Origin: a virus
IMG/VR virus record: IMGVR_UViG_3300034022_000629
Location: 1 to 64,000 of that record
Direction: 5' to 3' (one strand)
DNA length: 64,000 bases
This document shows, in pieces, positions 21,500 to 37,448 of this stretch (its first letter is position 1; every line of letters begins with the position of its first letter). The translations under genes and the position numbers were made by a program. The notes beneath the pieces were generated by a model that worked only from the letters and a program-made list of their open reading frames with translations, was not told where the DNA came from and did no database searches.

Positions 21500-21787
21500 T
21501 TACTCTTCATAGTCTCCAGTTGTTTTTCTTAATAATCTATCAACCTCATCTTCCTTTTCTCTCATCTCAATCACTCTGATGTAGTATGTATCAGGTGAGT
21601 TTGTTTCGGTTTTCATATTCTTATCAAACCACTTACTAAACCATTTACCTTTGTACGCTAGAACTTGACATCTGTCAGCAAATTCATTAGCGTCATCTTG
21701 GTCTAGTAGACCCTCGTCAACAAGTTTTGCAAGTACAATGTCTTTTACCTTGTTGTAATTTTCCATTTCTGAAGTTAAATCAATCAT
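21500..21787 (-). CDS. hypothetical protein
   Basis: 95-aa ORF. Confidence 0.35.
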   Translation of the reverse strand: MIDLTSEMENYNKVKDIVLAKLVDEGLLDQDDANEFADRCQVLAYKGKWFSKWFDKNMKTETNSPDTYYIRVIEMREKEDEVDRLLRKTTGDYEE

Positions 21788-21992
21788 TTTCTTTTAATTT
21801 ACTTAAACATTTATACAATATATGCGACTCTTCTAAAGTATATAATCCGCTTTGTTGACCGTAAGATATGGAGGCCTCTATTATTTGAATGGTGTCCTCT
21901 TTACTGATATTATCAATAAATGAATCGAATTCCTTTTTGCTCTTGAATTCTATTAATCCTCCGAATATATTTTCCATAATTAAAGTATACAA
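21780..21992 (-). CDS. hypothetical protein
   Basis: 70-aa ORF; first gene of the minus-strand block next to the divergent region at 21993-22024. Confidence 0.35.
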   Translation of the reverse strand: MYTLIMENIFGGLIEFKSKKEFDSFIDNISKEDTIQIIEASISYGQQSGLYTLEESHILYKCLSKLKEND

Positions 21993-22024
21993 AATTTAAA
22001 TCAAAATTCCAAATAATTATAGAT

Positions 22025-22390
22025 ATGAATGTTACAATAGGTGGTAAAATGTTCCCTGGTGAGTACTTAACAAGCCCAGAAGATATCCAAAAGGGTATGA
22101 TGGGTCGAGACTCTCTTGAGGGTTGTATGGTCTTTAAAATGGGTAAAGGTCACCATTCATTTTGGATGAAGAACTGTTTAATCCCATTGGATATTGTTTT
22201 TGTTCTAAACAACAGAGTAAGTGGTATTCATCACAATTGTCCCGCTCCGGATAGACATCGTATGAACCCACCAAAATATACAGGTCTTGGTGATCACGTT
22301 GTTGAGTTCCCAGGTGGAACCTGTAAAGATTTTAAGGTAGGAGATAAGGTCAACCTTTACCTTGGAACACCTCAGAATCCCATTAGATAA
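22025..22390 (+). CDS. DUF192 (COG1430)-like protein
   Basis: IPLDIVFVLNNRV and the overall size resemble the DUF192 family. Confidence 0.45.
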   Translation: MNVTIGGKMFPGEYLTSPEDIQKGMMGRDSLEGCMVFKMGKGHHSFWMKNCLIPLDIVFVLNNRVSGIHHNCPAPDRHRMNPPKYTGLGDHVVEFPGGTCKDFKVGDKVNLYLGTPQNPIR

Positions 22391-22497
22391 AATTATACCT
22401 CTTTCCATTGATTTTTTAAATTATTTTTGTTAACTTTTATAAAATATAAGTAATCAATAACAATAAAACAAACTATTTATAATTAAACATTAATACT

Positions 22498-22677
22498 ATG
22501 GGCTGCGGATGTAAAAAAAGAGCTGACGAACAACCTGTTCAAGAACAGACTCAAAACGTAACAATCAAATTAACTGAATCTAATACAGGTTCATCAACTA
22601 CCATTACCCAAACTCAAGAGGAGTTGGTAGAGAAAATTGTCGCTAAACTTAACGATTTAGAGGGCAATAACCAATAA
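22498..22677 (+). CDS. 59-aa protein with N-terminal MGCGCKK (possible lipid-anchoring motif) and a Thr/Gln-rich body
   Basis: Hand-translated; ends 2 nt before a strong terminator hairpin. Confidence 0.3.
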   Translation: MGCGCKKRADEQPVQEQTQNVTIKLTESNTGSSTTITQTQEELVEKIVAKLNDLEGNNQ

Positions 22678-22678
22678 T

Positions 22679-22718
22679 ATATCGGACAGGGAATATCGGA
22701 TTCTGTCCGATATTTTTT
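22679..22718 (+). terminator. rho-independent terminator (atatcggacag / ctgtccgatat stem plus T6)
   Basis: Perfect 11-bp stem with a 13-nt loop, followed by TTTTTT. Confidence 0.55.
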
Positions 22719-22750
22719 ACCTTATCTGTATATAAAATTTTATATATTAT

Positions 22751-22948
22751 ATGAAAGCGCAAACAAAATTAACGAGTGTGAATATCTTAGATGATGTTTA
22801 CAAAAAATTCAAAATTAAATCAATCGAAGGTTCAATTAACCTTCAAAAATTGGTTAATCGATCATTGGACCTTTACAATAAAGATGAAAAGTTCAGAGAC
22901 CTAATAAACGATCATAACGGATTAGCCGCTAGCGGTTCAAAGTTTTAA
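22751..22948 (+). CDS. small hypothetical protein
   Basis: 65 aa; immediately precedes the glycosyltransferase genes. Confidence 0.35.
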   Translation: MKAQTKLTSVNILDDVYKKFKIKSIEGSINLQKLVNRSLDLYNKDEKFRDLINDHNGLAASGSKF

Positions 22949-22952
22949 ATTA

Positions 22953-24308
22953 ATGAAGAAAAAAATATTACTTTTATCTGATGATTTAAGAATGACATCA
23001 GGTATTGCTACTATGTCCAAAGAAATCGTATTAGGTACCGTCCACAAATACGATTGGGTTCAGTTGGGTGCATCGATTAGTCACCCTGAAATTGGGAAGA
23101 TTGTTGATGTAAATGACGACATAAGAAAACGCACCGGAGTTGAAGATGCGAATTTAAAGATTATACCATACAATGGTTATGGGGATATCAATATGATTCG
23201 TAGATTGTTAGACGAAGAAAAACCAGATGCCATTCTTCATTTTACGGACCCACACTATTGGCAATGGTTATACGATAACGAACACGAGATAAGACAGCGT
23301 GTACCAATTTTATATTGGCACATTTGGGATGACTTACCAGATCCACAATACAATAGAGACTTCTATGAAAGTTGTGATTGGGTTGGTGGTATTTCAAAAC
23401 AAACATACGGTATTATTCATCGTGTTAGTAAAAGAACCGATAAGGTTACATTTAAACCTTTGGAAGATTGGCAGATAAGTTACGTTCCTCACGGTATTAA
23501 TCCAGATTTATTTAAACCGTTAGATACTATCAGTGAAGAAGTAACTAAATTTATTCACGGAGAAAAGAAATATGACTTTGTTCTATTTTACAACAGTAGA
23601 AACATTAGAAGGAAACAACCAAGTGACGTAATTTATTCATTTAAATTATTCTGTGATAGATTACCAAAAGAAAAGGCTGAAAAATGTTTATTGCTAATGC
23701 ACACATCTCCGGTTGATGAGAATGGTACAGACTTACCTGCAGTTATTAATGACCTTTGTCCTTATGATGTTAGATTCACGGGTATTAAATTAGAACAAGA
23801 TAAGCTAAATGAATTCTATAACATTGTTGATTGTACAATTAACATTGCAAACAATGAAGGATTTGGTTTAACGACGGCAGAATCTTTAATGTCGGGAACA
23901 CCAATCATTGTAAATGTTACTGGTGGGTTACAGGATCAATGTGGATTTGATTTTAGTGCCGATGATTATATTAGTGTCGGTACTTTACATAGTAAGGAAG
24001 AAAGAAGTCAAACAGCTCACGGTGAATGGGTTATTCCTGTTTGGCCATCGGCAATTAACTTAAATGGTTCAGTACCAACACCATACATTTTTGATGATAG
24101 GGTTAATGATATTGAAGTTGCTGATGCTATTATGAAAATGTATAAGTTTAGTAAAAAGAAGAGAAAAGAAAAAGGATTAAAAGGTAGAGAGTTTATGATT
24201 AACAATCTATCAAATAAAATAATGTGTGATAAACTGATTGAAGGTATTGATACCACAATGGAAAAATTCACACCAAGAAAAAGATTCGACACATATAAAG
24301 TAATATGA
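22953..24308 (+). CDS. GT-B glycosyltransferase (group 1 / GT4-like)
   Basis: NEGFGLTTAESLMSGTPII matches the GT4 E-x7-E motif. Confidence 0.6.
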   Translation: MKKKILLLSDDLRMTSGIATMSKEIVLGTVHKYDWVQLGASISHPEIGKIVDVNDDIRKRTGVEDANLKIIPYNGYGDINMIRRLLDEEKPDAILHFTDPHYWQWLYDNEHEIRQRVPILYWHIWDDLPDPQYNRDFYESCDWVGGISKQTYGIIHRVSKRTDKVTFKPLEDWQISYVPHGINPDLFKPLDTISEEVTKFIHGEKKYDFVLFYNSRNIRRKQPSDVIYSFKLFCDRLPKEKAEKCLLLMHTSPVDENGTDLPAVINDLCPYDVRFTGIKLEQDKLNEFYNIVDCTINIANNEGFGLTTAESLMSGTPIIVNVTGGLQDQCGFDFSADDYISVGTLHSKEERSQTAHGEWVIPVWPSAINLNGSVPTPYIFDDRVNDIEVADAIMKMYKFSKKKRKEKGLKGREFMINNLSNKIMCDKLIEGIDTTMEKFTPRKRFDTYKVI

Positions 24309-25561
24309 TTAAACCATTTTTATTATTTAGAGGACCAGTAAAAACAAGAAGCGGATATGGTGCACATTCAAGAGACTTACTTGAATCACTTTATAAGATG
24401 GACTTGTTTAATATTAAAATTGATAGTTGTTCTTGGGGAAGTACTCCATTAACCGCATTAGAAGAAGGGAATGAATTCCATAATTGGATTAATGAAAACA
24501 TCATTACCAACTTACCGGATCAACCAGAGATTTATGTACAAGTAACCGTACCAAATGAATTTCAAAGAGTTGGTAAATTTAATATAGGTGTGACCGCAGG
24601 TATTGAAACAACTGTGGCACCTAAAAATTGGGTGGATGGTTGTAATAGGATGGATCACATCATAACCACTTCAACATTTTCTAGAGACGTTTTATTACAA
24701 ACAGTTTATAATGAAACAGAAAATAATACTGGAAAATTAATTAAACAATTTAGAATTGAAAAACCCGTTTCAGTATTGTTTGAAGGTGTTGATACATCAA
24801 TATATAATAACAAATATAAAGGTATCGATGTCGATATTACGGAAGATTTTGCGTATCTTTTTGTTGGTCATTGGTTGAAAGGTGATACTGGTCAAGATCG
24901 TAAAGATGTTGGAATGTTGATTAGATGTTTCATTGAAGCATTTAAGGATGAAGAAGTAAAACCTGCGTTAGTTCTTAAAACGTCGTCAGCAACTTTCTCA
25001 GTTAGACAAAGAGAAGATTTTAGAAAGAAAATTGAGGATATTGTTAAGTTAAGTAAAACCGATACTCCTCCATCAATTTATCTTTTGTTTGGTGAATTAA
25101 CCAATGAGGAAATGAATGAGTTATATAATCATCCTAAAATAAAAGCAATGGTTTCAATAACAAAAGGTGAAGGATTTGGTAGACCGTTATTAGAATTTAC
25201 AATGACGGGTAAACCTGTGATAGCATCTAATTGGTCTGGACATAAAGACTTCTTACCTATGGAGAAAGCTATAATGGTTGGTGGTTCATTAACTGAAGTA
25301 CACGAAAGTGTGATAGATGATTTTATCATTAAGGGTTCCAAATGGTTCACAGCCAATTATAACGAGTTTACAGAAGTGATGAAAATTGTTATTAAAGATT
25401 ATGATAAGTTTTTGGAGAAGTCTGAATTGCTTAGAGAGTTTAACTCTGAAAACTTTACGTTGGATAATATGAAAAATAAGTTTGAATCTATTTTAAAACA
25501 AAATACAATTCAACCAAAAGAACATAAATTGGTTTTACCAAAACTCACAAAAGTTAACTAA
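24305..25561 (+). CDS. GT-B glycosyltransferase (group 1 / GT4-like)
   Basis: KGEGFGRPLLEFTMTGKPVIAS matches the E-x7-E motif. Confidence 0.6.
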   Translation: MIKPFLLFRGPVKTRSGYGAHSRDLLESLYKMDLFNIKIDSCSWGSTPLTALEEGNEFHNWINENIITNLPDQPEIYVQVTVPNEFQRVGKFNIGVTAGIETTVAPKNWVDGCNRMDHIITTSTFSRDVLLQTVYNETENNTGKLIKQFRIEKPVSVLFEGVDTSIYNNKYKGIDVDITEDFAYLFVGHWLKGDTGQDRKDVGMLIRCFIEAFKDEEVKPALVLKTSSATFSVRQREDFRKKIEDIVKLSKTDTPPSIYLLFGELTNEEMNELYNHPKIKAMVSITKGEGFGRPLLEFTMTGKPVIASNWSGHKDFLPMEKAIMVGGSLTEVHESVIDDFIIKGSKWFTANYNEFTEVMKIVIKDYDKFLEKSELLREFNSENFTLDNMKNKFESILKQNTIQPKEHKLVLPKLTKVN

Positions 25562-25812
25562 TGTCATTTAAATTTCTCACAGGTAACCAAGATATGTTTA
25601 CACATTTGGAACCCACCCAACTATTAACATTAAGACAACCAACAATGATTAACAATGTTGAATTTTGTTTTCAGTTTGGTGATAATGAACCCGTAGTATT
25701 TGCAACAGGACCTAATGAATGTCAAATTCGATTAAGTCCACAAACAGATGCTAATATTATGTTCACAGATAATCATAGACAGTTTAAATTATTTGCAAGA
25801 GAAAGACAATGA
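25561..25812 (+). CDS. hypothetical protein
   Basis: 83 aa; start overlaps the preceding stop (ATGA-type coupling at 25561). Confidence 0.35.
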   Translation: MSFKFLTGNQDMFTHLEPTQLLTLRQPTMINNVEFCFQFGDNEPVVFATGPNECQIRLSPQTDANIMFTDNHRQFKLFARERQ

Positions 25813-26018
25813 GAAAGTTTACCTTCTTTGTTGGTATTAGTAAACCAACACTAACCGCAACTTGGTCACCTGAATTCAATGATAATTTATTTACTAACCA
25901 CGGTATTGATGCTGAGGCGGAACTAACAAGAATAATGTCAGCAGAAATTGCAAGAACAATAGATGAAGATATAATAAGAACATTAACAAGAGAAATAAAC
26001 GGAGGATTAAGAGCCTAA
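25809..26018 (+). CDS. hypothetical protein
   Basis: 69 aa; 4-nt overlap with the upstream gene. Confidence 0.35.
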   Translation: MRKFTFFVGISKPTLTATWSPEFNDNLFTNHGIDAEAELTRIMSAEIARTIDEDIIRTLTREINGGLRA

Positions 26019-26019
26019 T

Positions 26020-26865
26020 ATGAAAATTTTAGTAACAGGAGGAGCAGGATTTATAGGAACTAATCTAATTAAGAGATTATTATTTGAAGGGCATAATGTA
26101 GAATCTATTGACAACTACGATAGTGGGTTAGTGTCCAATCACGTAGATGGGTGTAACTATCATACGGGAGATATAGAATCTATTGGTTTGATGGATAAAG
26201 ACTTTGATATGATATATCATTTAGCGGGACTAAGTAGAATCCAACCATCGTTTAAAAATCCAACAGAAACTTTCAGAGTTAATACTATAGGTACCGAGAG
26301 TGTTTGTTCATTTGCAAAGAAAATAAATGCTAAGGTTGTATATGCGGGTTCGTCGTCAAGATGGCACGACCCATTTCAATCACCATACGCTTGTTACAAA
26401 CATATGGGTGAAGAGATTTGTAAAATGTACAGAAAGGTTTATGATATAGACATTGAAATTGTTAGATTTTATAATGTTTACGGACCTAACGAAGTTGTTG
26501 ACGGTGATTGGGCCGCAGTTATTGGTATATGGAGAAGACAAGTTATTAATAAGGAACCAATTACTATTGTTGGTGACGGTAATCAAAGACGAGATTTCAC
26601 ACACGTTATTGATATAGTTGATGGTTTATATAGGGTTGGTACGAGTAACGAAAAACACGAAGACGCTTGGGAGTTAGGTACTGGAACCAATTATTCAATA
26701 CTTGAAGTCTATGAAATGTTTAAGGAAAAATTTGGGTGTGATAAGTTACACATTGAGAATCAGAAGGGTAACTATCGTATAACTTTGCGTGAAAATAACG
26801 ATGCAATCGACCGTTTAGGTTGGTCACCAGAAAATAGATTAAAAAATTATGTAGATAGTTTATGA
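26020..26865 (+). CDS. NAD-dependent sugar epimerase/dehydratase (short SDR, UDP-hexose 4-epimerase-like)
   Basis: N-terminal Rossmann motif ILVTGGAGFIG and a catalytic YACYK (YxxxK). Confidence 0.7.
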   Translation: MKILVTGGAGFIGTNLIKRLLFEGHNVESIDNYDSGLVSNHVDGCNYHTGDIESIGLMDKDFDMIYHLAGLSRIQPSFKNPTETFRVNTIGTESVCSFAKKINAKVVYAGSSSRWHDPFQSPYACYKHMGEEICKMYRKVYDIDIEIVRFYNVYGPNEVVDGDWAAVIGIWRRQVINKEPITIVGDGNQRRDFTHVIDIVDGLYRVGTSNEKHEDAWELGTGTNYSILEVYEMFKEKFGCDKLHIENQKGNYRITLRENNDAIDRLGWSPENRLKNYVDSL

Positions 26866-27485
26866 AAATAAGTTTTGCTATAACAGTATCCAAAGAGATA
26901 AACGAAATTAAACATTTAGTTCCATTCTTATTAGAACATAAACGACCTCAAGATGAGATAGTTGTTTTGTTTGATGAAAAAAATGGAGACAAGGAAGTGT
27001 TAGATTTTTTATTGCCTTTTAATATCAAACCTAACGTACAAACCTGGAGAGGTTTTGATTTTGATTATAACTTTGCCGATTGGAAGAATAAATTAAATTC
27101 TTATTGTGTTGGGGATTATATATTTCAATTAGATGCTGATGAGATGGTAAGTGAGTATATGATAAAGAACGTTACTGAAATCATTTCTATGAATAAGGAC
27201 GTTGAGTTATTTTTTCTACCAAGAATAAACATAGTAAGTGGAATAACTCAGGATCATATTAATAGATGGGGATGGATAGTTGATGACTTAGGTAGGATTA
27301 ACTTTCCAGACTTTCAAGGTAGAATATATAAGAAAGGTTTGGAATGGCAGGGAAAAGTTCACGAAAGAATTGTAGGAACGAAGTCCTATTCATTACTACC
27401 ATCAGATGAAGAGTCGTATTGTATTAAACATTACAAAGACATATCTAAACAAGAACAACAAAATAACTTATACAGTAAAATATGA
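26862..27485 (+). CDS. putative GT-A-fold glycosyltransferase
   Basis: FQLDADEMV is DxD-like; gene context. Confidence 0.35.
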   Translation: MKISFAITVSKEINEIKHLVPFLLEHKRPQDEIVVLFDEKNGDKEVLDFLLPFNIKPNVQTWRGFDFDYNFADWKNKLNSYCVGDYIFQLDADEMVSEYMIKNVTEIISMNKDVELFFLPRINIVSGITQDHINRWGWIVDDLGRINFPDFQGRIYKKGLEWQGKVHERIVGTKSYSLLPSDEESYCIKHYKDISKQEQQNNLYSKI

Positions 27486-28030
27486 AACTAGAAGAAATAT
27501 ACAATCAGAGATGTTCAACTCCATCGGATATTAATGAACACTTACCAACATTAAAGAAATACGCCGAGGAGTGTGACCACATTACCGAAATGGGAGTTAG
27601 ATGGGTGGTATCAACTTACGCCTTTATGATGGGGGGACCTAAAAAATTAATATCAATTGACATTAACCCCGTTGAAAAACACGGAATTAAAGTTGAAGAC
27701 TTAGTTGAATTAGCCAAAGAAAAAAATGTTGATTTTGAATTTCAATTAGGTGACACTACTGTAATTGAAATTGATGAAACTGATTTTCTTTTTATTGATA
27801 CTTGGCACGTTTACCAACAATTAAAAACAGAATTAACACTACACGGTAATAAAGCTAGAAAATATATTGGATTCCACGACACCACAATATTTGAAACTAG
27901 AGGGGAAAACGGTCATCCTGGTTTATGGCCCGCAATCGAGGAGTTCTTATCTGAAAACCCTCATTGGTCAGTCCACGAAAGGTTTACAAATAACAACGGA
28001 TTAACTATATTAAAGAGAAATGAAGATTGA
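27482..28030 (+). CDS. putative class I SAM-dependent methyltransferase (TylF/MycF-like)
   Basis: SDINEHLPTLKKYA and ITEMGV resemble macrocin-O-methyltransferase-like proteins. Confidence 0.4.
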   Translation: MKLEEIYNQRCSTPSDINEHLPTLKKYAEECDHITEMGVRWVVSTYAFMMGGPKKLISIDINPVEKHGIKVEDLVELAKEKNVDFEFQLGDTTVIEIDETDFLFIDTWHVYQQLKTELTLHGNKARKYIGFHDTTIFETRGENGHPGLWPAIEEFLSENPHWSVHERFTNNNGLTILKRNED

Positions 28031-28598
28031 ATTTATAATACCGACTTATAATAGGGTACATCACTTAATGACTATTATTAGTTCAATATTTGCTCAAACT
28101 AATCCAAATTGGTATATACACGTTGTTGCCGATTGTCCACCCGAAGGAACATTAGATAAGATAATGGACTTTTACAAGGATAGTGATAAAATAAAATTCA
28201 CAATTTTAGAAAAAAGGTATAACGATTGGGGACATACCCCAAGAAATTACGGATTAAAAAACTCTAAAGAAGAGTGGGTTATTATGACGGGAGAGGATAA
28301 CTACTACGTTCCTACTTTTGTTGGGGAATTTTTAAAAGTTGCAACTCAGAACACCATATTTGTTTATTGTAATATGGTTCATAATTGGGTGAATAAAGAC
28401 TACATTGCAATTAAATCTCAACCAATATTAGGTCACATTGATATTGGTAATTTTATGGTTAAAAAAAGATTAGCTAAAGATATGGAATTGGATGTGACAG
28501 AAGCTAACGCCGATGGTTTGTTTGTTGAGGAATACTTGAGACAATATCCTTTCGGTAAACAAAAGTTTATAGAAAAATTTTTATATGTCCACAACTAA
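28020..28598 (+). CDS. GT2-family glycosyltransferase
   Basis: The N-terminal EFIIPTYNRVHHL motif is typical of GT2. Confidence 0.6.
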   Translation: MKIEFIIPTYNRVHHLMTIISSIFAQTNPNWYIHVVADCPPEGTLDKIMDFYKDSDKIKFTILEKRYNDWGHTPRNYGLKNSKEEWVIMTGEDNYYVPTFVGEFLKVATQNTIFVYCNMVHNWVNKDYIAIKSQPILGHIDIGNFMVKKRLAKDMELDVTEANADGLFVEEYLRQYPFGKQKFIEKFLYVHN

Positions 28599-29349
28599 AA
28601 AGAAATGTGCGGTTTTTACTATTGTAAAAAATGAAAATTACTTCTTACCAATATGGTTAAAACATTATAAGAGGTACTTTGATAATTCAGACATTTATAT
28701 CTTAGACCATCAATCGAATGATGGGTCAACTGAAGGATTAGATGTTAATGTTGACTTAGTTATTAACGAAATGGCATTTGATCATCAATGGTTAGTTAAT
28801 ACCGTAGAAAACTTCCAAGTTAAATTACTTGAGAACTATGAATCGGTTTTATTTGTGGAAATAGATGAGATAATATATACTCTTGACAAACCATTAAATG
28901 AAGTTATAATTGATTTTATTAACGATGATAATTTACTTGTTCAATCTTGTACTAGTAGAGATTTATTACAAATTTTAGAAACAGAAAAGTCTTTAGAAGA
29001 GGGTGATTTAATTATTGAAAATAGAAACTATTGGTTCGAGGATGCAATTTACCATAAAACATTATTATCTAAAGTACCTTTAAAATGGGTGGTTGGATTT
29101 CATTACATAACTAACCATACCACAAACCACACACTTAACCTTAGAATGTGTCACTTACATCGTTTTGATTTTGAATTAATGTGTGAAAGAAATATTCATC
29201 GTATAAATAATACCCAAATTGAGGGTGGTGCAAATGGTTTTCAAAATAAAACAACAGATAAAAATAAATTAATGGATTTCTTTATTATGGAACATAATAA
29301 AAAGGAACTCATTCCTGAAGAACATAAAATAGCTCTAAAACATATATGA
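28585..29349 (+). CDS. putative nucleotide-sugar-dependent transferase (GT-A-like)
   Basis: The N-terminal AVFTIVKNENYFLPIW resembles GT-A-fold DUF-type transferases. Confidence 0.35.
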   Translation: MSTTKKKCAVFTIVKNENYFLPIWLKHYKRYFDNSDIYILDHQSNDGSTEGLDVNVDLVINEMAFDHQWLVNTVENFQVKLLENYESVLFVEIDEIIYTLDKPLNEVIIDFINDDNLLVQSCTSRDLLQILETEKSLEEGDLIIENRNYWFEDAIYHKTLLSKVPLKWVVGFHYITNHTTNHTLNLRMCHLHRFDFELMCERNIHRINNTQIEGGANGFQNKTTDKNKLMDFFIMEHNKKELIPEEHKIALKHI

Positions 29350-29972
29350 ATTTAATTGATAAAAATATCTACAATGAATTTACTTTATTGCCCGAAGATA
29401 CATCTGGTTGGAATGGGAATAGTGAAGTTTTTGTTAAATTAATTACAGAAATTAAACCTAAAACAATTATTGAAGTTGGTTCTTGGAAAGGACAGTCAGC
29501 AATTAATATGGGTAAAACAACTAAGGAATTGGGATTAGGTACCACAATACATTGTGTGGACACTTGGTTAGGTGCAATTGAATTTTGGTCAAGTTTAAAG
29601 GAAACAGAAGAACGTAATTTATTATTACGTCACGGATACCCTCAGATTTATTATCAATTTTTAAGTAATGTAATTCACAATGGTTTACAAGATACTATTT
29701 TACCATTTCCAAATACATCGGAAAATGGATTTAGATATTTTAGAGATATAAAACTGACCGCGGATTTAATTTACATCGACGCCTCTCACGAGGAGGAAGA
29801 TGTTTATAAAGATGTAAATAATTATTTTACCTTATTAAACGCGGGAGGTATAATATTTGGGGATGATTATGTTAGTTGGATTGATGTAAAGAAATCAATT
29901 GACAGATTCGTTAAAGAACAAAATTTAACTTTAGAAGTATTGGAAAATAATTTTTGGGTTATAAAAAAATAA
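29346..29972 (+). CDS. class I SAM-dependent methyltransferase (Methyltransf_24-like)
   Basis: IIEVGSWKGQSAINMG is a GxG SAM-binding motif; YIDASHEEEDV is typical of the family. Confidence 0.5.
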   Translation: MNLIDKNIYNEFTLLPEDTSGWNGNSEVFVKLITEIKPKTIIEVGSWKGQSAINMGKTTKELGLGTTIHCVDTWLGAIEFWSSLKETEERNLLLRHGYPQIYYQFLSNVIHNGLQDTILPFPNTSENGFRYFRDIKLTADLIYIDASHEEEDVYKDVNNYFTLLNAGGIIFGDDYVSWIDVKKSIDRFVKEQNLTLEVLENNFWVIKK

Positions 29973-29976
29973 GATT

Positions 29977-31071
29977 ATGGTATATGATTACTTAATAGTG
30001 GGTTCTGGATTCTTCGGTAGTATCTGTGCACACGAACTTAACAAAACAGGTAAGAAGGTTTTAGTGATTGATTCAAGAAATCATATAGGTGGTAACTGTC
30101 ACACAGAAAATAAAGATGGTATCAATGTTCACACATATGGTCCTCACGTATTTCACACATCAAATGAAGAAGTTTGGAAATGGATTAATCAATTTGTTGA
30201 ATTCAATAACTTCAGACTGAATCCTGTTGCCAATTACAAAGATGAATTGTATTCGTTACCTTTTAATATGTGGACATTTAATAAGTTATGGAATGTTACC
30301 ACACCTGAACAAGCTAAACTTGTTATTGAGAATCAATCTAAAGAGATTGGTGAACCAACTAACTTAGAGGAACAAGCAATTAAATTGGTTGGTAAGGATG
30401 TGTATGAGAAATTGATTAAAGGATATACCACCAAACAATGGAAGAAAGACCCTAAAGAATTACCTAAAGAGATTATAACTAGATTACCTGTTAGATTTAC
30501 ATTTGATGGTAACTACTTCAATGACAAGTATCAAGGTATTCCAATTGGTGGTTACACACAGATATTTGAAAAGTTATTAGATGGTATTGAAGTTAGGTTG
30601 GGTGTTGATTATTTCAAAGATGAATTACCCGAACATACTAAAGTAATATACACTGGTCCTATTGATAGGTTCTTTGATTACAAGTATGGTGAATTAGAAT
30701 ATAAAACAACAAGGTTCGAACATAAACACTTTGACACACCAAACTATCAAGGTACAGCAGTAATGAACTACACTGAAGAAGAGATAGTACATACTAGAAC
30801 TATTGAACATAAACATTTTGAAAGTTCAGACACACCAACAACTTGGGTTTCGTGGGAATATCCTCACACATATAAGGCAGGTGAGACCGAACCATATTAT
30901 CCTGTGAATGATAAATCAAATACTGAGATATATTCAAAGTATAAAGAAGAGGCAAATAAATTAAGTGATAGTGTTTTATTTGGTGGTAGGTTAGCCGAGT
31001 ACAAATATTATGATATGCATCAAGTAATTGCGTCAGCGTTAGATTTTATAAATAAAGAAATTAATAAATGA
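29977..31071 (+). CDS. glf: UDP-galactopyranose mutase
   Basis: N-terminal FAD-binding DYLIVGSGFFGS, followed by NCHT and GPHVFHT; 364 aa, typical of Glf. Confidence 0.8.
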   Translation: MVYDYLIVGSGFFGSICAHELNKTGKKVLVIDSRNHIGGNCHTENKDGINVHTYGPHVFHTSNEEVWKWINQFVEFNNFRLNPVANYKDELYSLPFNMWTFNKLWNVTTPEQAKLVIENQSKEIGEPTNLEEQAIKLVGKDVYEKLIKGYTTKQWKKDPKELPKEIITRLPVRFTFDGNYFNDKYQGIPIGGYTQIFEKLLDGIEVRLGVDYFKDELPEHTKVIYTGPIDRFFDYKYGELEYKTTRFEHKHFDTPNYQGTAVMNYTEEEIVHTRTIEHKHFESSDTPTTWVSWEYPHTYKAGETEPYYPVNDKSNTEIYSKYKEEANKLSDSVLFGGRLAEYKYYDMHQVIASALDFINKEINK

Positions 31072-32177
31072 ATATAACATTTGTATTGGCGGTATTAAAT
31101 AAATTAGATTTAACCAAGGATTGTTATAATCATTTACGTAAGTTATATCCAGAGGTACCGTTAGTTATTAGTAGTGGCGGATCTTTAGATGGTACAAAGG
31201 AATGGTTAGAATCTTTAGATGATGAGTATATGTCATATTTTCACGACGATGAAAGATTGACATTTTCCGATACCTACAATGCTGGAATTAAATTAGTTGA
31301 TACTGAGAAATTAGTGTTGATACATAACGATATGGTTATTGGTGAACAGTTCTTAGAGAACTTAGATAGATTATTAGATGAGAATCCAAATACTTTATTA
31401 TCGTACACCACAATTGAACCTCCAATCTTTAAGGGACACAAAAGACCTGGTAAAGTATTAATGGATATGGGGTCATCGTTTCATAATTTTGACCATACTT
31501 TATTTGAACGATACGTTCAAGACAATAAAGATAAATGTAATATCTACGATGGTGCGGTTTTCTTTATGAGTGGGACCAAGAAAATGTTTGATGATATTGG
31601 CGGGTTTGATGGTTTTAGTTTTGTCCCTTGTTTCTGTGAGGATGATGATTTCTTAATTCGTGCGAAACTAAAAGGCTACGAACTTAAAACTACGGACTGT
31701 GCAATCACCTATCATTTTGTTTCGCAGACATCTAGATTTAGTGACGAGATGAAGACCGATAGGTTTAAAATTGAAGTTTCGTCAAATAGAAACTTTATTA
31801 GGAAGTGGGGTATTCCAATATCATCGTTTAATGAATTAAGATATTGGGAAGATAAGATTTTCAAATATAATACCTTTTCAATTGGTTTGACAACTAGAGA
31901 TAAATCGAAATTAGTACAATTAGAACCTTACTTTGATAAAATCGATTTAGGGGTGATTCCTGAAGATTATATAGAGAATGAACAAAAGAATACACGCTAC
32001 GATTTAAGGTCGAAATTTACCCTTACTGACACCGTTGACGTGATGGTTTATGAAACTGCACCATTCACAGATGAAGACATTTATACTTTGAATAGATTAA
32101 GGTTGTCATTACCTCATTATGAACCTGGACAATACAATATAGGTAATATGTTAATAGAAATAAAAAAGGGACTATAA
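31068..32177 (+). CDS. GT2-family glycosyltransferase
   Basis: The N-terminal FVLAVLNKLDL and the FCEDDDF (DxD-like) motif fit GT2 architecture. Confidence 0.5.
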   Translation: MNITFVLAVLNKLDLTKDCYNHLRKLYPEVPLVISSGGSLDGTKEWLESLDDEYMSYFHDDERLTFSDTYNAGIKLVDTEKLVLIHNDMVIGEQFLENLDRLLDENPNTLLSYTTIEPPIFKGHKRPGKVLMDMGSSFHNFDHTLFERYVQDNKDKCNIYDGAVFFMSGTKKMFDDIGGFDGFSFVPCFCEDDDFLIRAKLKGYELKTTDCAITYHFVSQTSRFSDEMKTDRFKIEVSSNRNFIRKWGIPISSFNELRYWEDKIFKYNTFSIGLTTRDKSKLVQLEPYFDKIDLGVIPEDYIENEQKNTRYDLRSKFTLTDTVDVMVYETAPFTDEDIYTLNRLRLSLPHYEPGQYNIGNMLIEIKKGL

Positions 32178-32184
32178 GTCCCTT
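32166..32184. terminator. bidirectional intrinsic terminator between convergent genes (aagggact-ata-agtccctt with A/T tracts on both sides)
   Basis: Perfect 8-bp stem. It sits exactly between the plus-strand gene ending at 32177 and the minus-strand gene ending at 32190. Confidence 0.55.
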
Positions 32185-32189
32185 TTTTA

Positions 32190-32645
32190 TTATTTCTTAA
32201 TCAACTTAAATAGTACTTGATATTTGTCTTTTGTTTTTCCCGCTTCCTTTAGATCTTCTTTGGTAATTTCAGGATATTCAATTTCAATTTCTTGATTTAA
32301 AAGTACACCATATTCATTATCAAATTCGATGTACTGAGGGTTAACAACTTTACCAGTTACGGTACCTTCATCGTCCTTAACTTCGTTGTACATTTTTACT
32401 AAGACGCCACCATTACCATCTTCTTCTCCATACTTTTTGATTAATTCATCTCTTAATGCTTCAACCTTAGTTCTCTCGCCTTTAAGTTCTGTTGAGAAGT
32501 CACTCAATTCGTATTTCAAAATGATTGAAAGGTTTTGTTTACTGAATCCCTCAAACACCTGTTCTCCAGTTTGTGGTTCGATATACCCGTTAATTTCGCT
32601 TTCTAATTGTAGAACGTCCCCTAATTTTAATGTGATTTTTTCCAT
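32190..32645 (-). CDS. hypothetical acidic protein
   Basis: 151-aa ORF. Confidence 0.4.
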   Translation of the reverse strand: MEKITLKLGDVLQLESEINGYIEPQTGEQVFEGFSKQNLSIILKYELSDFSTELKGERTKVEALRDELIKKYGEEDGNGGVLVKMYNEVKDDEGTVTGKVVNPQYIEFDNEYGVLLNQEIEIEYPEITKEDLKEAGKTKDKYQVLFKLIKK

Positions 32646-32696
32646 ATTTTTTAATTTTCTTTTATAATATATATTTTATTTTTCAAAAAGTGAATC

Positions 32697-33305
32697 TTAT
32701 TTCCACCACCATCCTTTACCGTCAAAAACGGCATAGTCCATTATTAAATTAATTCTATCTGATTGACTTTGGTTTCTAACCTCGTGTTCAACCATATCAT
32801 TCAATTCCCAAACCTCTCCAACCTTAAAGAACTTATCTTCATCCCTAACATTGTAGATAATCTTATCTTCCTCGGAAATCAATGCAACGTGAACTCTATG
32901 ACTAAGGGTGTAAGAACCACCAACGTCTATATGTCTATTAACATTCTTACCTGCAAATAGTTTAACGAACACAGCCCTAGCAAGATAACCTGGACCGTAT
33001 TCTTTTTCCAAGACCTTCATAACAGGTTCCAATAATTCTTCCATATTAAGAAGATCCCAATACTTGTGTTTAGTTCCGTTAAAGTGTCTAAAGTCTTTAT
33101 CATATATTAATTGAATGGCTTGGGTTGCGGAATGGAATCTACTATATGCTTCTTGTCTAAAAGTATCAGCACCCCAATCCTCATCTTCAATTTTACTTAA
33201 GGAATCAATTAATGGTTGTGGGTTAATTGTACCCAAAAATTTAAAATTTTCTCCTATGTTCATAGAATAGTGATTAATGCGTATGTTATCATAAGTGATA
33301 TCCAA
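32697..33305 (-). CDS. cupin-type aspartyl/asparaginyl beta-hydroxylase-like 2OG oxygenase
   Basis: NRHIDVGGS...HRVHVAL...MVEHEV gives an H-x-D...H pattern and the right size for this family. Confidence 0.45.
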   Translation of the reverse strand: MDITYDNIRINHYSMNIGENFKFLGTINPQPLIDSLSKIEDEDWGADTFRQEAYSRFHSATQAIQLIYDKDFRHFNGTKHKYWDLLNMEELLEPVMKVLEKEYGPGYLARAVFVKLFAGKNVNRHIDVGGSYTLSHRVHVALISEEDKIIYNVRDEDKFFKVGEVWELNDMVEHEVRNQSQSDRINLIMDYAVFDGKGWWWK

Positions 33306-34264
33306 ATTATTAATGCTTTAAGATATGTCATAAATCCTGTGTGAAAATACTTTTGACCTATCGGTAAACATTTATGTGAAGGCGATATCAAATACGCGGA
33401 ATATTCCAAAGTGAAAAACAATACAAAATAATGCATACCAAATACACTTGTTAATAAACTAACAATACTTGCATATTTTGCTGAAGACCCTAATAAAAAT
33501 GAAGATAAGAAAGATATCATCGACACTATTAAAATGTATTCTGGTTTGTTATATTGTTTTATATAACCTTCCATAACGCCATAATAAGAACCAACTACGT
33601 TACCTAATATAATCACTAACGCAACAATCCATATTAGTTCCCAATTAATATAATTTATTAACTTAGTCCAACTGTTAGAATAATAGACTAGATAGAGTGT
33701 AAATATTGTAAACGCTCCAAAATAATAATCGGTGAAGCAACTAATAATAATTGTACCTAAGAATGGTAAAACAACATTAGTAATATTCTTCCAATTAATT
33801 GGGTCGTCACTTACTTCGATATCTATTTCATCGTCATCCATAGATAGGATATAATAACTAATATATAATCCTGAAATCAATAACAATGGCCAGATATATG
33901 ACATAAACTGCATATAGGTTAACCCTAACACCGCCATAGGAATAATAACTGTTTTCTCTAATGGTGACCATAGATAGTAATGATGAGTTGCAAGGTAATC
34001 GATGATACCAAACTTCTTACGTTTCTTATTATCAATCGGAGCAATACTATTCAACATAGATGCCGATAGTGCAACACGACCTGGTATGGGTAGAATACCA
34101 CCAAATAGTGATACTAAGAATACTACCATCTTTTTAGATTTAACTTTTTGTTCTAGTAATCTAAAGATATCCATAAGGTATCCTCTTTCTTTGAGGATAC
34201 CTGTTACGAACATTATGAATATTAAGTAGACAAGGAACTCTTGTCCTTTGATTAAAATCTCCAT
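33260..34264 (-). CDS. polytopic membrane protein (about 10 TM)
   Basis: Very hydrophobic throughout. Confidence 0.45.
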   Translation of the reverse strand: MEILIKGQEFLVYLIFIMFVTGILKERGYLMDIFRLLEQKVKSKKMVVFLVSLFGGILPIPGRVALSASMLNSIAPIDNKKRKKFGIIDYLATHHYYLWSPLEKTVIIPMAVLGLTYMQFMSYIWPLLLISGLYISYYILSMDDDEIDIEVSDDPINWKNITNVVLPFLGTIIISCFTDYYFGAFTIFTLYLVYYSNSWTKLINYINWELIWIVALVIILGNVVGSYYGVMEGYIKQYNKPEYILIVSMISFLSSFLLGSSAKYASIVSLLTSVFGMHYFVLFFTLEYSAYLISPSHKCLPIGQKYFHTGFMTYLKALIIWISLMITYALITIL

Positions 34265-35136: not shown

Positions 35137-35200
35137 TTTGTTTTTGTTTAAGAAAAGTTTATTATTGATGTAATATAACTAAAAAAGATGAAAATAAAAA

Positions 35201-35220
35201 GGGGTTTATCTCTAAACCCC
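35201..35220 (-). terminator. intrinsic terminator (ggggttta / taaacccc) followed by a T-run on the minus strand
   Basis: Perfect 8-bp stem with a 4-nt loop. Confidence 0.45.
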
Positions 35221-35226
35221 CTATTT

Positions 35227-37436: not shown

Positions 37437-37448
37437 AAAATGTTTTTT

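What the first reader, a model, noticed from the sequence alone, without database searches (positions are those of the whole stretch)
22025..32177. Opposite-strand glycosylation island with UDP-galactopyranose mutase, bounded by strong terminators
This is the only plus-strand block in the window. It holds a DUF192 gene and small ORFs, then two GT4 enzymes, an SDR epimerase, three GT2/GT-A enzymes, two or three SAM methyltransferases and Glf, ending in a perfect bidirectional terminator at 32166-32184. Glf makes UDP-galactofuranose, so the product probably contains Galf and O-methyl sugars. The strand inversion and terminator boundaries suggest a horizontally acquired cassette. Together with the second module at 46580-64000, the phage carries a large share of the genes for one glycan.
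Basis: partly seen in the sequence, partly recalled or inferred. Interest (0 to 1): 0.75.

Follow-up and report, generated by a model that had tools for sequence, protein, structure and literature searches.

The report
Conserved phage glycan operon, swappable centre
This is a sugar-chain-building operon that a large group of uncultivated water phages has carried for a long time, with four fixed enzymes and a middle section that differs from phage to phage, so it is not a cassette recently taken from a host, and what the sugar chain is attached to is still unknown.

Summary
Window 22025-32177 is the only plus-strand block. It encodes two GT4s, four GT2s (not three), an SDR epimerase, one firm and one probable methyltransferase, and an intact UDP-galactopyranose mutase. 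A perfect bidirectional terminator closes it at 32159-32191.

The "horizontally acquired cassette" reading is mostly wrong:
- GC, GC3 and codon usage match the rest of the phage.
- The divergent/convergent layout and a four-GT frame (GT4a, GT4b, GT2a, GT2d) occur in 25 of 26 close relatives.
- The frame also occurs in Flavobacterium phage immuto and Microcystis phage Mel-JY01.
- No isolate cellular genome carries it.

What varies is a slot inside the frame, 0.6-8 kb long, with 67 gene families. Glf is one of its rarer occupants. A 97%-identical relative lacks exactly o182+GT2b. The block also recombines as a unit among related phages.

All proteins are soluble, and no flippase, polymerase or initiating transferase is present. 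The adjacent ThyA has canonical thymidylate-synthase residues, so the known ThyA-type DNA-glycosylation route is unsupported.

Most likely this is a cytoplasmic assembly line for a strain-variable glycan on a phage-made acceptor, probably a virion protein. That last step is inferred.

Unreported extras: a unique TATATA dyad before the operon, and a conserved mini-protein copying one segment of the Gp23 capsid protein.

The parts
22025..22390 (+). DUF192 gene. It is its own unit upstream of the operon and conserved with it in relatives.
   Evidence: Pfam PF02643, 61.6 bits. Present in 109 of 162 fetched loci. A 107-nt AT-rich spacer follows it.
22498..22677 (+). o59, a small ORF (MGCGCKK...). 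It is rare among relatives and of doubtful significance.
   Evidence: Present in only 7 loci. No Pfam or PHROG hit.
22679..22719 (+). Intrinsic terminator-like hairpin (ATATCGGACAG / CTGTCCGATAT, 13-nt loop, T run) that insulates the operon from upstream transcription.
   Evidence: Sequence read. Fold energy -19.6 kcal/mol. The arms were found as I19. A hairpin plus T run sits at the same place in most relatives, with different stem sequences.
22729..22746 (+). Perfect palindrome TATATAAAATTTTATATA, 5 nt before the o65 start codon. It is a candidate operon-specific promoter or operator.
   Evidence: It is the only TATATA-N3-7-TATATA in the 64 kb. Two TATATA hexamers 4-6 nt apart lie just upstream of the o65 homologue in most relatives.
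22751..22948 (+). o65, first gene of the operon. It is a 65-aa helical protein of unknown fold and is as conserved as GT4a. Its role as a regulator is a guess.
   Evidence: 113 loci. 737 database clusters, all unnamed. A homologue precedes GT4a in Flavobacterium phage immuto and in L166. AF2 pLDDT 69; no significant fold or sequence match.
22953..24308 (+). GT4a, a retaining GT-B glycosyltransferase and part of the conserved frame.
   Evidence: Pfam Glycos_transf_1 31.8 bits. EX7E at 302-310. Best PDB match is chlorovirus B736L, 3OY2, E 2.5e-7. At least 202 IMG/VR relatives.
24305..25561 (+). GT4b, the second GT-B glycosyltransferase and part of the conserved frame.
   Evidence: Pfam 28.9 bits. 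EX7E at 289-297. 112 loci. 41-45% identical in immuto, Mel-JY01, L165, L166 and L168.
25561..25812 (+). o83, a small all-beta protein family with an N-terminal M-x-F-K-F-F. Its stop codon overlaps the start of the next gene (ATGA).
   Evidence: 78 loci. 276 database clusters. Alignment. AF2 model has 7 strands at pLDDT 65; no significant fold match.
25809..26018 (+). Mini-Gp23, a 69-aa protein whose core copies one strand-plus-helix segment of the T4-type major capsid protein. It has the same M-x-x-F-K-F-F start as o83.
   Evidence: Pfam Gp23 E 8.9e-10 and phrog_138. All 48 close homologues are 61-103 aa. 48% identity over 52 aa to residues 269-317 of a 506-aa Gp23-family protein.
26020..26865 (+). 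SDR NDP-sugar epimerase/dehydratase, probably GalE-like. It sits in the variable slot.
   Evidence: Pfam Epimerase 152 bits. GGAGFIG and YACYK motifs. In many relatives only 24-28% identical, meaning a different SDR.
26862..27485 (+). GT2a, a GT-A glycosyltransferase and part of the conserved frame.
   Evidence: Pfam GT2 22.3 bits, just under the cut-off. LDADE motif. 108 loci. 34-47% identical in immuto, Mel-JY01, L165, L166 and L168.
27482..28030 (+). o182, a probable divergent class I methyltransferase. With GT2b it forms a two-gene unit that is absent from the 97%-identical relative L003.
   Evidence: hhalign 81-87% probability to Methyltransf_24-type slot families. No Pfam or PDB hit. The indel is 27491-28568.
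28020..28598 (+). GT2b glycosyltransferase, in the variable slot.
   Evidence: Pfam GT2 57.8 bits. 29 loci. Absent from L003.
28585..29349 (+). GT2c glycosyltransferase, in the variable slot and rare.
   Evidence: Pfam Glyco_tranf_2_4 30 bits. 2 loci. Fused in frame to GT2a in L003.
29346..29972 (+). SAM methyltransferase (Methyltransf_24; weak similarity to rhamnosyl O-methyltransferase and TylF). In the variable slot.
   Evidence: Pfam 61.1 bits. 7 loci.
29977..31071 (+). Glf, UDP-galactopyranose mutase. In the variable slot.
   Evidence: TIGR00031 410 bits against a 304 cut-off. 1I8T 474 bits, end to end. 9 of 162 loci.
31068..32177 (+). GT2d, the terminal GT-A glycosyltransferase with an uncharacterised C-terminal half. 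Part of the conserved frame.
   Evidence: Pfam GT2 36.9 bits over residues 5-174. 67 loci, a count limited by flank length. 25-36% identical in immuto, Mel-JY01, L166 and L168.
32159..32191 (.). Perfect bidirectional intrinsic terminator shared with the convergent gene o151.
   Evidence: 15-pair palindrome with A and T runs on both sides. Fold energy -17.8 kcal/mol.

Best explanation
**What it is.** This is an old, terminator-insulated operon of a large clade of uncultivated phages. The contigs reach about 335 kb, and the hosts are probably Bacteroidota. It encodes a soluble, cytoplasmic glycan assembly line.

**How it probably works.**
- Four glycosyltransferases present throughout the clade (GT4a, GT4b, GT2a, GT2d) build a conserved core.
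- A slot between GT4b and GT2d takes in different sugar-nucleotide and tailoring genes in different phages, so the finished glycan differs between strains.
- In this phage the slot supplies a GalE-like SDR and Glf (UDP-Glc -> UDP-Galp -> UDP-Galf), two further GT2s (one presumably a galactofuranosyltransferase), and one or two methyltransferases.

**Shown:** gene content, intactness of the enzymes, the frame-plus-slot architecture, its age and distribution, and the absence of membrane machinery.

**Inferred:** the acceptor. I think it is a phage-made macromolecule, most likely a virion protein, and that the variable glycan is a surface coat under diversifying selection.

**Confidence.** About 0.85 for the architecture and about 0.4 for the acceptor.
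For: **Enzymes.**

**Frame and slot.**
- The presence matrix over 162 loci shows the frame genes in 67-113 loci. The slot genes o182, GT2b, GT2c, MT208 and Glf occur in only 2-29 loci.
- Gene order and strands are constant.
- Slot length ranges from 636 bp to 8 kb, with 67 gene clusters in 43 distinct blocks.
- Slot contents include several Methyltransf_24 types, a DegT aminotransferase, a hexapeptide acyltransferase, PhyH, KAS III, an AMP-ligase and an FAD oxidoreductase.
- A clean two-gene indel separates the window from a 97%-identical relative.

**A phage-borne acceptor is favoured by:**
- None of the 15 proteins has a TM-like segment. There is no initiating phosphoglycosyltransferase, flippase, polymerase or ABC transporter.
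- The same four-GT frame, at 25-49% identity and in the same order, occurs in phages of hosts from different phyla. These are Flavobacterium phage immuto and Microcystis phage Mel-JY01, plus Immutovirus-like contigs.
- No isolate cellular genome carries it.
- The best solved-structure match of GT4a, and a weak one of GT4b, is the chlorovirus glycosyltransferase B736L.
- A conserved free-standing copy of a capsid-protein segment sits inside the operon.
- Tail-protein genes lie nearby at 19272-19751 and 42428-46525.
Against: - No glycoprotein, acceptor motif or virion proteome is available, so the acceptor assignment rests on exclusion and context.
- In the Immutovirus-like phages and Mel-JY01 the cassette lies among replication genes, directly after a PD-(D/E)XK exonuclease. 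It does not lie among structural genes.
- GT-B genes next to a thymidylate-synthase gene are used elsewhere as a marker of DNA hypermodification clusters (Pyle et al.).
- Immuto and Mel-JY01 lack the mini-Gp23, so it cannot be essential to the frame.
- Both cultured hosts are Gram-negative, so a shared lipid-linked acceptor such as undecaprenyl phosphate is not excluded.
- The window is 64 kb of a probably much larger genome, so missing partners may lie elsewhere.
Confidence: 0.45

Rival explanations
1. Host-envelope remodelling. The enzymes act on the host's lipid-linked intermediates (LPS O-antigen, capsule, or the general O-glycan of Bacteroidota) during infection. This would change the cell surface, for example to block superinfection or to prevent progeny from being trapped on debris. 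The host's own initiating transferase, flippase and ligase would be used.
For: GT4, GT2, epimerase, Glf and methyltransferase are the standard content of O-antigen and capsule loci. The layout of conserved flanks with a variable centre resembles such loci. Membrane proteins lie just downstream on the other strand: DUF401, o294 and o110. This is also the traditional reading of the 'LPS' clusters of cyanomyovirus P-SSM2 (own knowledge).
Against: No initiating transferase, flippase, polymerase or ligase is present, and all proteins are soluble. The frame is conserved at 25-49% identity in phages of a flavobacterium and a cyanobacterium, whose envelope glycans differ. No isolate cellular genome has the frame. 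It is core (25 of 26) in a clade of apparently lytic large phages. DUF401 and o294 are absent from the 97%-identical relative L003.
Confidence: 0.25
2. DNA hypermodification. The GTs build an oligosaccharide on a modified base of the phage genome as protection from restriction. Precedents are Rhizobium phage RL38J1 (which also encodes Glf), RB69/DLP3 and YerA41.
For: A ThyA gene lies 0.7 kb from the block (1.6 kb from GT4a) and is conserved next to it. GT-B plus ThyS adjacency is typical of pre-replicative DNA-glycosylation clusters. RL38J1 combines a ThyA homologue, Glf and DNA GTs and appeared in my Glf search. A C5-cytosine DNA methylase lies at 14700-15668. In Immutovirus-like phages the cassette follows replication genes. 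YerA41 carries a substituent of about 1 kDa on thymidine.
Against: The window's ThyA has the canonical thymidylate-synthase residues at all four diagnostic positions given by Lee et al.: L143=L, C146=C, D169=D and N177=N. It also passes TS equivalog cut-offs. It is therefore neither a hydroxymethylase nor a 5-hydroxy-dCMP synthase. No TET/JBP-type dioxygenase was recognised in the window. Six GTs plus aminotransferase, acyltransferase, methyltransferase and acyl-ligase tailoring exceed any DNA glycan described in the papers read (mono- to tri-saccharides). Only 64 kb of the genome is visible, so this rival is weakened but not excluded.
Confidence: 0.15
3. The whole plus-strand block is a cassette recently acquired from a host or another organism, marked by its strand inversion and terminators.
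For: The block is insulated by terminators. In pairwise comparisons it has a history different from its flanks: 96.5-97% against 75-91% identity with L003. In more distant phages with a related ThyA (under 70% identity) the block is next to thyA in only 6 of 31.
Against: Composition and codon usage are indistinguishable from the rest of the phage. The inverted arrangement is shared by all relatives examined. 25 of 26 close relatives have it. No cellular source was found. There are no border repeats and no integrase or transposase. The identity discontinuities are explained by recombination among related phages.
Confidence: 0.05

Closest known systems
Virion glycosylation of mycobacteriophages (Freeman et al. 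2023, as summarised in PMC12619734)
   Same: Phage-encoded glycosyltransferases, with methyltransferases (own knowledge), that vary between related phages. The product is proposed here to decorate virion proteins.
   Different: The hosts are actinobacterial and the genomes are small siphovirus genomes with few GTs. The acceptor there (C-termini of capsid and tail-tube subunits) is demonstrated. Here the acceptor is only inferred, and the operon has 6 GTs, its own sugar-nucleotide enzymes, a fixed four-GT frame and a swap-in slot.
Chlorovirus-encoded capsid glycosylation machinery, with B736L of virus NY-2A (PDB 3OY2) as a structural representative
   Same: A virus that carries soluble GTs and makes glycans containing methylated sugars on its capsid independently of host membrane machinery (own knowledge). 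B736L is the best solved-structure match of GT4a (E 2.5e-7) and a weak one of GT4b.
   Different: It is a eukaryotic virus. Similarity is limited to the C-terminal GT-B domain, and B736L's own acceptor is not established. This is a resemblance, not membership.
Phage DNA-glycosylation gene clusters: RB69/DLP3/RL38J1 (Lee et al. 2026, PMC13326640) and MT/5mYOX/GT clusters (Pyle et al., bioRxiv 10.1101/2023.12.21.572611)
   Same: GT genes next to a ThyA-family gene. RL38J1 also encodes Glf. A C5-cytosine methylase is present in the window.
   Different: The ThyA here has the canonical TS signature. No TET-like dioxygenase was found. There are far more GTs and tailoring enzymes than in the described DNA glycans.
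Bacterial O-antigen and capsule loci
   Same: GT4/GT2/epimerase/Glf/methyltransferase content, and conserved edges around a hypervariable centre that changes by gene-cassette replacement.
   Different: There is no initiating transferase, flippase, polymerase or export genes. The locus is on a phage and has no cellular counterpart among 185,579 species genomes.
'LPS' gene clusters of cyanomyovirus P-SSM2 (own knowledge) and the four core glycosyltransferase orthogroups of 'moraphages' (PMC12619734)
   Same: Large aquatic phages with multi-gene glycosylation clusters of unknown target. The moraphage paper reports four core GT orthogroups and predicted Bacteroidota hosts, which matches the four-GT frame here.
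   Different: I could not verify that this window is a moraphage. Neither source, as far as I read or know, describes the frame-plus-slot architecture, the dyad or the mini-Gp23.

Membership tests
UDP-galactopyranose mutase (Glf/UGM, prokaryotic type) | Whole-protein match above the curated equivalog cut-off | tested here: met
   TIGR00031 410.4 bits against a 303.75 cut-off. PF03275 249 bits.
UDP-galactopyranose mutase (Glf/UGM, prokaryotic type) | N-terminal FAD-binding GxGxxG, and conserved substrate-site motifs aligned to a solved UGM | tested here: met
   GSGFFG at residues 9-14. End-to-end alignment to 1I8T with RFTFD, YYPVND and GGRLAEYKYYDMHQV conserved. Which residues are catalytic is from own knowledge.
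UDP-galactopyranose mutase (Glf/UGM, prokaryotic type) | Mutase activity on UDP-Galp | not testable with these tools
   Needs an enzyme assay.
GT4 retaining GT-B glycosyltransferases (GT4a, GT4b) | Glycos_transf_1 domain above the Pfam gathering score | tested here: met
   31.8 and 28.9 bits against a 26.4 cut-off. Both are marginal.
GT4 retaining GT-B glycosyltransferases (GT4a, GT4b) | EX7E motif in the C-terminal domain | tested here: met
   EGFGLTTAE at 302-310 and EGFGRPLLE at 289-297. E302 and E310 are invariant in alignment A3.
GT2 (GT-A) glycosyltransferases (GT2a-d) | Pfam GT2-type domain above the cut-off | tested here: inconclusive
   GT2b 57.8, GT2d 36.9 and GT2c 30 bits (the last to PF13704) pass. 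GT2a at 22.3 bits is just under the 23.3 cut-off but has an LDADE motif and is annotated GT2 in phage immuto.
Recently acquired genomic island | Atypical base composition or codon usage | tested here: not met
   GC 0.32-0.33 against 0.30-0.35. GC3 0.25-0.26 against 0.23-0.26. Codon r 0.96-0.99.
Recently acquired genomic island | Patchy presence among close relatives | tested here: not met
   GT4a is adjacent in 25 of 26 thyA-seeded loci with ThyA at least 70% identical. Only the central slot is patchy.
Recently acquired genomic island | Mobility genes or flanking repeats | tested here: not met
   No integrase or transposase. Only weak AT-rich chance repeats.
Recently acquired genomic island | A donor locus in cellular genomes | tested here: not met
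   7 MAG contigs among 185,579 species genomes. L163, L166 and L168 are phage contigs. The scan used only two peptide patterns, so its sensitivity is limited.
Pre-replicative DNA glycosylation cluster (ThyA-homologue type: T-even, RB69/DLP3, RL38J1) | A ThyA homologue with altered active-site signature (N177D and/or L143D/E, or D169N) | tested here: not met
   MVLPPCH and QRSVDTFLGLPFNIASY give L143, C146, D169 and N177 unchanged.
Post-replicative DNA glycosylation cluster (C5-MT + 5mYOX/TET + GT) | C5-cytosine methyltransferase | tested here: met
   PF00145 152.6 bits at 14700-15668, 6.4 kb from the block (7.1 kb from the operon start) and not adjacent to it.
Post-replicative DNA glycosylation cluster (C5-MT + 5mYOX/TET + GT) | TET/JBP-type 5-methylpyrimidine dioxygenase clustered with the GT | tested here: not met
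   No Tet_JBP hit in any ORF scanned. The 2OG oxygenases present are of the AspH and 2OG-FeII_Oxy_3 types. This applies to this 64-kb window only.
Wzx/Wzy- or ABC-dependent polysaccharide locus | Initiating phosphoglycosyltransferase, flippase or ABC transporter, and polymerase | tested here: not met
   No such Pfam families. No TM-like segment in any of the 15 proteins; the highest KD19 is 1.19.
Phage virion-protein glycosylation system | Glycan demonstrated on a structural protein | not testable with these tools
   Needs virions. Cultured carriers of the frame exist (immuto, Mel-JY01).
Gp23-type major capsid protein (for the 69-aa ORF) | Full HK97-like capsid fold across the Gp23 model | tested here: not met
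   Only model positions 150-195 of 376 are matched. All close homologues are 61-103 aa. It is a free-standing copy of one segment, not a capsid protein.

The most novel reading that the evidence does not exclude
The operon may be a virion "serotype" locus. Under this reading, a widespread clade of large aquatic phages coats its capsid with a glycan whose outer part is swapped between strains, much as bacteria swap O-antigens. The translationally coupled pair o83 and mini-Gp23 share an M-x-F-K-F-F N-terminus, and one of them mimics a strand-plus-helix segment of the major capsid protein. They would act as an adaptor or surrogate acceptor linking the glycosyltransferases to capsid assembly. A dedicated small protein (o65) acting at a unique TATATA dyad would time the operon's expression.
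Probability: 0.15. Interest if true: 0.8.

Novelty: new variant of a known kind. Interest (0 to 1): 0.5.

Why it matters
Phage-encoded glycosylation clusters are usually filed as "auxiliary metabolic" or "LPS" genes borrowed from hosts. Here the core of the cluster is a long-standing, phage-restricted module. It is shared by phage families that infect a flavobacterium and a cyanobacterium, and it has an O-antigen-like hypervariable centre.

If the acceptor is a virion protein, glycan coats would be a common and diversifying feature of abundant aquatic phages. That would bear on adsorption, grazing, particle stickiness and immune or defence recognition. If the acceptor is DNA, it would be the most elaborate DNA glycan known. 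In both cases, two cultured phages (immuto and Mel-JY01) make the question directly testable.

Tried and rejected
- **Nucleotide search of phage genomes.** Megablast of the island and of 35900-46600 against 50,697 phage records gave no match (one search was a syntax error).
- **Fused 152-aa gene.** I thought the 83-aa and 69-aa ORFs might be a split version of immuto's 152-aa gene at the same position. That protein is an unrelated Zn-ribbon protein.
- **o65 as a ribbon-helix-helix regulator.** Pfam and PHROGs gave nothing. A profile search against PDB sequences gave nothing significant. The AF2 model is only moderately confident, at pLDDT 69, and Foldseek found nothing. The idea remains a guess.
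- **o83 fold.** The AF2 model has pLDDT 65 and seven strands. The only matches are non-significant Ig-like ones.
- **o182 as a methyltransferase.** There is no Pfam, NCBIfam or PDB support. Only partial hhalign support exists.
- **GT2a, GT2d and GT4b against PDB sequences.** Nothing decisive came up. A GmaR (flagellin GT) hit at E 0.11 is not significant.
- **ThyA as a base-modifying enzyme.** Rejected on the residue signature.
- **TET-like enzyme next to the C5 methylase.** None was found.
- **tRNAs for host inference.** None are present.
- **Promoter scan.** Fewer sigma-70-like sites than in shuffled sequence, so it was uninformative.
- **Border repeats.** Only chance-level matches.
- **Literature on immuto and Mel-JY01.** No functional work on the cassette was found.
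- **Moraphage membership.** I could not verify whether the window belongs to the moraphages of PMC12619734.

Full report
**1. The observation**

The window is phage DNA. It has tail-fibre and tail-protein genes, a tryptophan halogenase, DNA methylases, a thymidylate synthase and endolysin-like genes.

Every substantial ORF is on the minus strand except those in 22025-32177. GC skew changes sign exactly there.

- DUF192;
- two GT4 (GT-B) enzymes, both with an EX7E motif;
- an SDR NDP-sugar epimerase/dehydratase with GGAGFIG and YACYK motifs;
- four GT2-type enzymes, not three;
- one firm Methyltransf_24 methyltransferase;
- Glf.

It has only 81-87% hhalign probability to methyltransferase families found in relatives.

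Glf passes the curated UGM equivalog cut-off, at 410 bits against 304. It aligns over its whole length with E. coli UGM 1I8T, with the FAD and substrate motifs intact.

The right-hand terminator is a perfect 15-pair palindrome at 32159-32191.

The left edge is a divergent gene start. A second hairpin terminator (22679-22719) follows the small ORF o59. The glycosylation operon proper therefore starts at o65 (22751) and is tightly packed through 32177.

**2. Not a recently acquired cassette**

GC, GC3 and codon usage of the frame genes and of the variable genes cannot be told apart from the rest of the window (codon r 0.96-0.99).

IMG/VR holds at least 202 relatives of GT4a at 67-97% identity, and 465 relatives of the neighbouring ThyA. 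The contigs reach 335 kb.

A tblastn matrix over 162 fetched loci shows a conserved frame together with both flanks. The frame is DUF192, o65, GT4a, GT4b, o83, a Gp23-like ORF, GT2a and GT2d. The flanks are thyA, o71 and o70 on the left and o151 on the right.

The order and strands are always thyA- ... | DUF192+ ... GT2d+ | o151-.

In loci seeded on thyA, which avoids circularity, GT4a is adjacent as follows:

| ThyA identity to the window | Loci with GT4a adjacent |
|---|---|
| at least 70% | 25 of 26 |
| 60-70% | 6 of 23 |
| below 60% | 0 of 8 |

A scan of one genome for each of 185,579 bacterial and archaeal species found seven loci, all on MAG contigs:
- one is a member of this clade, binned as Flavobacteriaceae;
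- two others carry DNA polymerase A, homing endonucleases, GroEL and a PD-(D/E)XK exonuclease, like Flavobacterium phage immuto.

There are no border repeats or mobility genes.

**3. What does vary**

The distance from the end of GT4b to the start of GT2d ranges from 636 bp (GT2a alone) to 8 kb. The 43 distinct blocks hold 67 gene clusters.

Besides the window's genes, the slot holds in other phages:
- several kinds of Methyltransf_24 enzyme;
- a DegT-type aminotransferase;
- a hexapeptide acyltransferase;
- a PhyH dioxygenase;
- a FabH-like KAS III;
- an AMP-dependent ligase;
- an FAD oxidoreductase.

This is a sugar-tailoring toolkit. Glf occurs in only 9 of the 162 loci.

The nearest relative, L003, is about 97% identical in DNA across the block. 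It lacks exactly window 27491-28568 (o182 plus GT2b), and its GT2a and GT2c are joined in frame into a 464-aa ORF. Genes are therefore gained or lost precisely at gene junctions.

**4. Module boundaries do exist, but through recombination among phages**

Against L003, window 21778-32671 is 96.5-97% identical. This segment covers o70, the whole plus-strand block and o151. The left flank is 75-91% identical. To the right, 2.8 kb (AspH, DUF401, o294) is missing, and the next shared gene is 77% identical.

In L005/L006 the opposite holds. The right flank is 96% identical in protein, and the island is 56-83%.

Over 32 loci, frame identity correlates only loosely with flank identity: r is 0.51 with thyA and 0.75 with o151.

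The block therefore behaves as an exchangeable unit within the clade.

**5. The frame reaches beyond this clade**

The order (o65)-GT4a-GT4b-GT2a-...-GT2d, at 25-49% identity, is found in:
- Flavobacterium phage vB_FspM_immuto;
- Microcystis phage Mel-JY01;
- contigs binned as Ignavibacteria, Anaeromicropila and an unclassified bacterium.

Immuto's slot holds aminotransferase, methyltransferase, acetyltransferase-like, mannosyltransferase and epimerase genes.

**6. What the glycan is attached to**

This cannot be shown with sequence alone. I weighed three acceptors.

*(a) A host lipid-linked glycan.*
- The content resembles an O-antigen locus.
- However, there is no initiating transferase, flippase, polymerase or exporter, and none of the 15 proteins has a membrane segment.
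- The frame is shared by phages of a flavobacterium and a cyanobacterium, and no isolate cellular genome has it.

*(b) Phage DNA.* This rival is serious.
- Lee et al. 2026 show that viral ThyA homologues make 5-hydroxy-dCMP as an anchor for DNA glycans. Rhizobium phage RL38J1 combines such an enzyme with Glf and DNA GTs.
- RL38J1 appeared in my Glf search.
- Pyle et al. report that GT-B genes are often next to ThyS.
- I applied the published residue test. The window's ThyA reads MVLPPCH and QRSVDTFLGLPFNIASY, so L143, C146, D169 and N177 are all canonical. It also passes the thymidylate-synthase equivalog cut-offs. It should therefore make dTMP.
- A C5-cytosine methylase is present 6.4 kb from the block, but no TET/JBP-type dioxygenase was recognised.
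- Six GTs with amino-, acyl- and methyl-tailoring exceed the mono- to tri-saccharides described on DNA.
- YerA41's substituent of about 1 kDa shows that larger ones may exist.

*(c) A phage protein.* This is favoured by exclusion, by the weak but best solved-structure link of GT4a and GT4b to the chlorovirus GT B736L, and by the capsid-derived mini-gene in the operon.

I commit to (c) at about 0.4, with (a) at about 0.25 and (b) at about 0.15.

**7. Unreported features inside the block**

*The dyad.* A perfect palindrome, TATATAAAATTTTATATA (22729-22746), lies between the upstream terminator and o65.
- It is the only TATATA-N3-7-TATATA in the 64 kb.
- A pair of TATATA hexamers lies at the same place in most relatives. 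The terminator stems there differ in sequence but keep their pairing.

*o65.* It belongs to a family of 737 database clusters with no annotation. Whether it binds the dyad is untested, and my ribbon-helix-helix idea found no support.

*o83 and mini-Gp23.* These two ORFs are translationally coupled through an ATGA overlap, and both start with M-x-(x)-F-K-F-F.
- The second matches Pfam Gp23 at E 9e-10.
- All 48 of its close homologues are 61-103 aa.
- A profile search of 1.8 billion representative proteins finds about 50 such mini-proteins. After them come true capsid proteins that match only the core.
- The core is 48% identical over 52 residues to residues 269-317 of a 506-aa protein that scores 259 bits on Pfam Gp23.
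- It is therefore a maintained, free-standing copy of one capsid segment. By my reading, this is the strand and long helix that align with T4 gp23 LKAAYSIELAQDL...EINREVV.
- Its function is unknown. Immuto and Mel-JY01 lack it.

**8. The second module**

Window 46580-64000 encodes a carbamoyltransferase, an APS kinase, GT25, GT2 and GT7C-type enzymes, three radical SAM proteins and a 2OG oxygenase.
- The carbamoyltransferase has 76 IMG/VR relatives, and 12 contigs also carry GT4a.
- Around it, the three GT genes occur in only 2-3 of 45 loci, so this region is mosaic too.
- It is separated from the island by about 14 kb that includes tail-fibre genes.
- Nothing tested links the two regions to one glycan.

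**9. Comparison and verdict**

The kind of system, a phage-encoded glycan biosynthesis cluster, is known. Examples are mycobacteriophage virion glycosylation, chlorovirus capsid glycosylation, cyanophage "LPS" clusters and DNA-glycosylation clusters. A 2025 paper on aquatic "moraphages" notes four core GT orthogroups without analysing them.

What appears new is the architecture:
- a phage-restricted four-GT frame shared across phage families;
- an O-antigen-like hypervariable slot;
- dedicated insulation and a unique dyad;
- an embedded capsid-segment mini-gene.

I rate it a new variant of a known kind, of moderate interest. The key question, the acceptor, is open but directly testable in two cultured phages.

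Noticed in passing
window 25561-26018: Two translationally coupled small genes (o83 and a 69-aa copy of a Gp23 capsid segment) share an M-x-(x)-F-K-F-F N-terminus. They are conserved in most relatives. Some loci have two o83 paralogues.
   Followed up: yes
window 22729-22746: The perfect 18-bp palindrome TATATAAAATTTTATATA is unique in the window. Equivalent TATATA pairs lie upstream of o65 homologues across the clade.
   Followed up: partly
L003 13910-15304, against window 26862-29349: In a 97%-identical relative, GT2a and GT2c are fused in frame into a 464-aa two-domain ORF where the window has o182 and GT2b between them.
   Followed up: yes
window 20172-21320 (minus strand): The thymidylate synthase is 382 aa. 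It has the Lactobacillus/Staphylococcus-type insertion and a further insertion of about 45 aa (residues about 233-279) that has no counterpart in the solved structures it aligns to.
   Followed up: partly
window 12248-13162 (minus strand): IscA/HesB-like and IscU/NifU-like Fe-S assembly proteins, judged by eye from the sequences. They are plausible helpers for the three radical SAM enzymes at 48416-49456 and 61838-63999.
   Followed up: no
window 14700-15668 and 11289-11903 (minus strand): A clear C5-cytosine DNA methylase and a second, weak and truncated-looking one. A 170-aa ORF (14987-15499) lies inside the first on the same strand.
   Followed up: partly
window 32672-35434: A segment with an Asp/Asn beta-hydroxylase-type oxygenase, a DUF401 membrane protein and a 294-aa membrane protein is absent from the near-identical relative L003. 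It is present at 84-96% protein identity in L005/L006, which are otherwise more distant.
   Followed up: partly
window 46580-64000: A second mosaic region has a carbamoyltransferase, an APS kinase, GT25/GT2/GT7C-type enzymes, DUF6734, a 2OG oxygenase and three radical SAM proteins, one with a SPASM domain placed N-terminally. The carbamoyl and sulfate chemistry suggests further glycan or small-molecule tailoring.
   Followed up: partly
window 40485-42426 (minus strand): Two adjacent paralogous genes (321 and 323 aa, both phrog_1417) lie next to the 1365-aa tail-fibre gene.
   Followed up: no
window 35919-37436 (minus strand): A tryptophan halogenase homologue (phrog_2928, 355 bits). It is present in only one of the fetched relatives (L059).
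   Followed up: no
window 22000-32200; L163: Only 1 of 15 plus-strand genes has a Shine-Dalgarno-like sequence. One clade member is a 248-kb contig binned as Flavobacteriaceae, and mini-protein homologues sit in a Bacteroidota MAG. Together these hint at Bacteroidota hosts.
   Followed up: partly
L001 7801-8742, L002 6929-7825, L166 8613-9548, L168 8965-9888: In immuto and the Immutovirus-like contigs a PD-(D/E)XK exonuclease gene lies directly upstream of the glycosylation cassette. In Mel-JY01 it is one gene (GuaB) further upstream. The window has no counterpart at that position.
   Followed up: no
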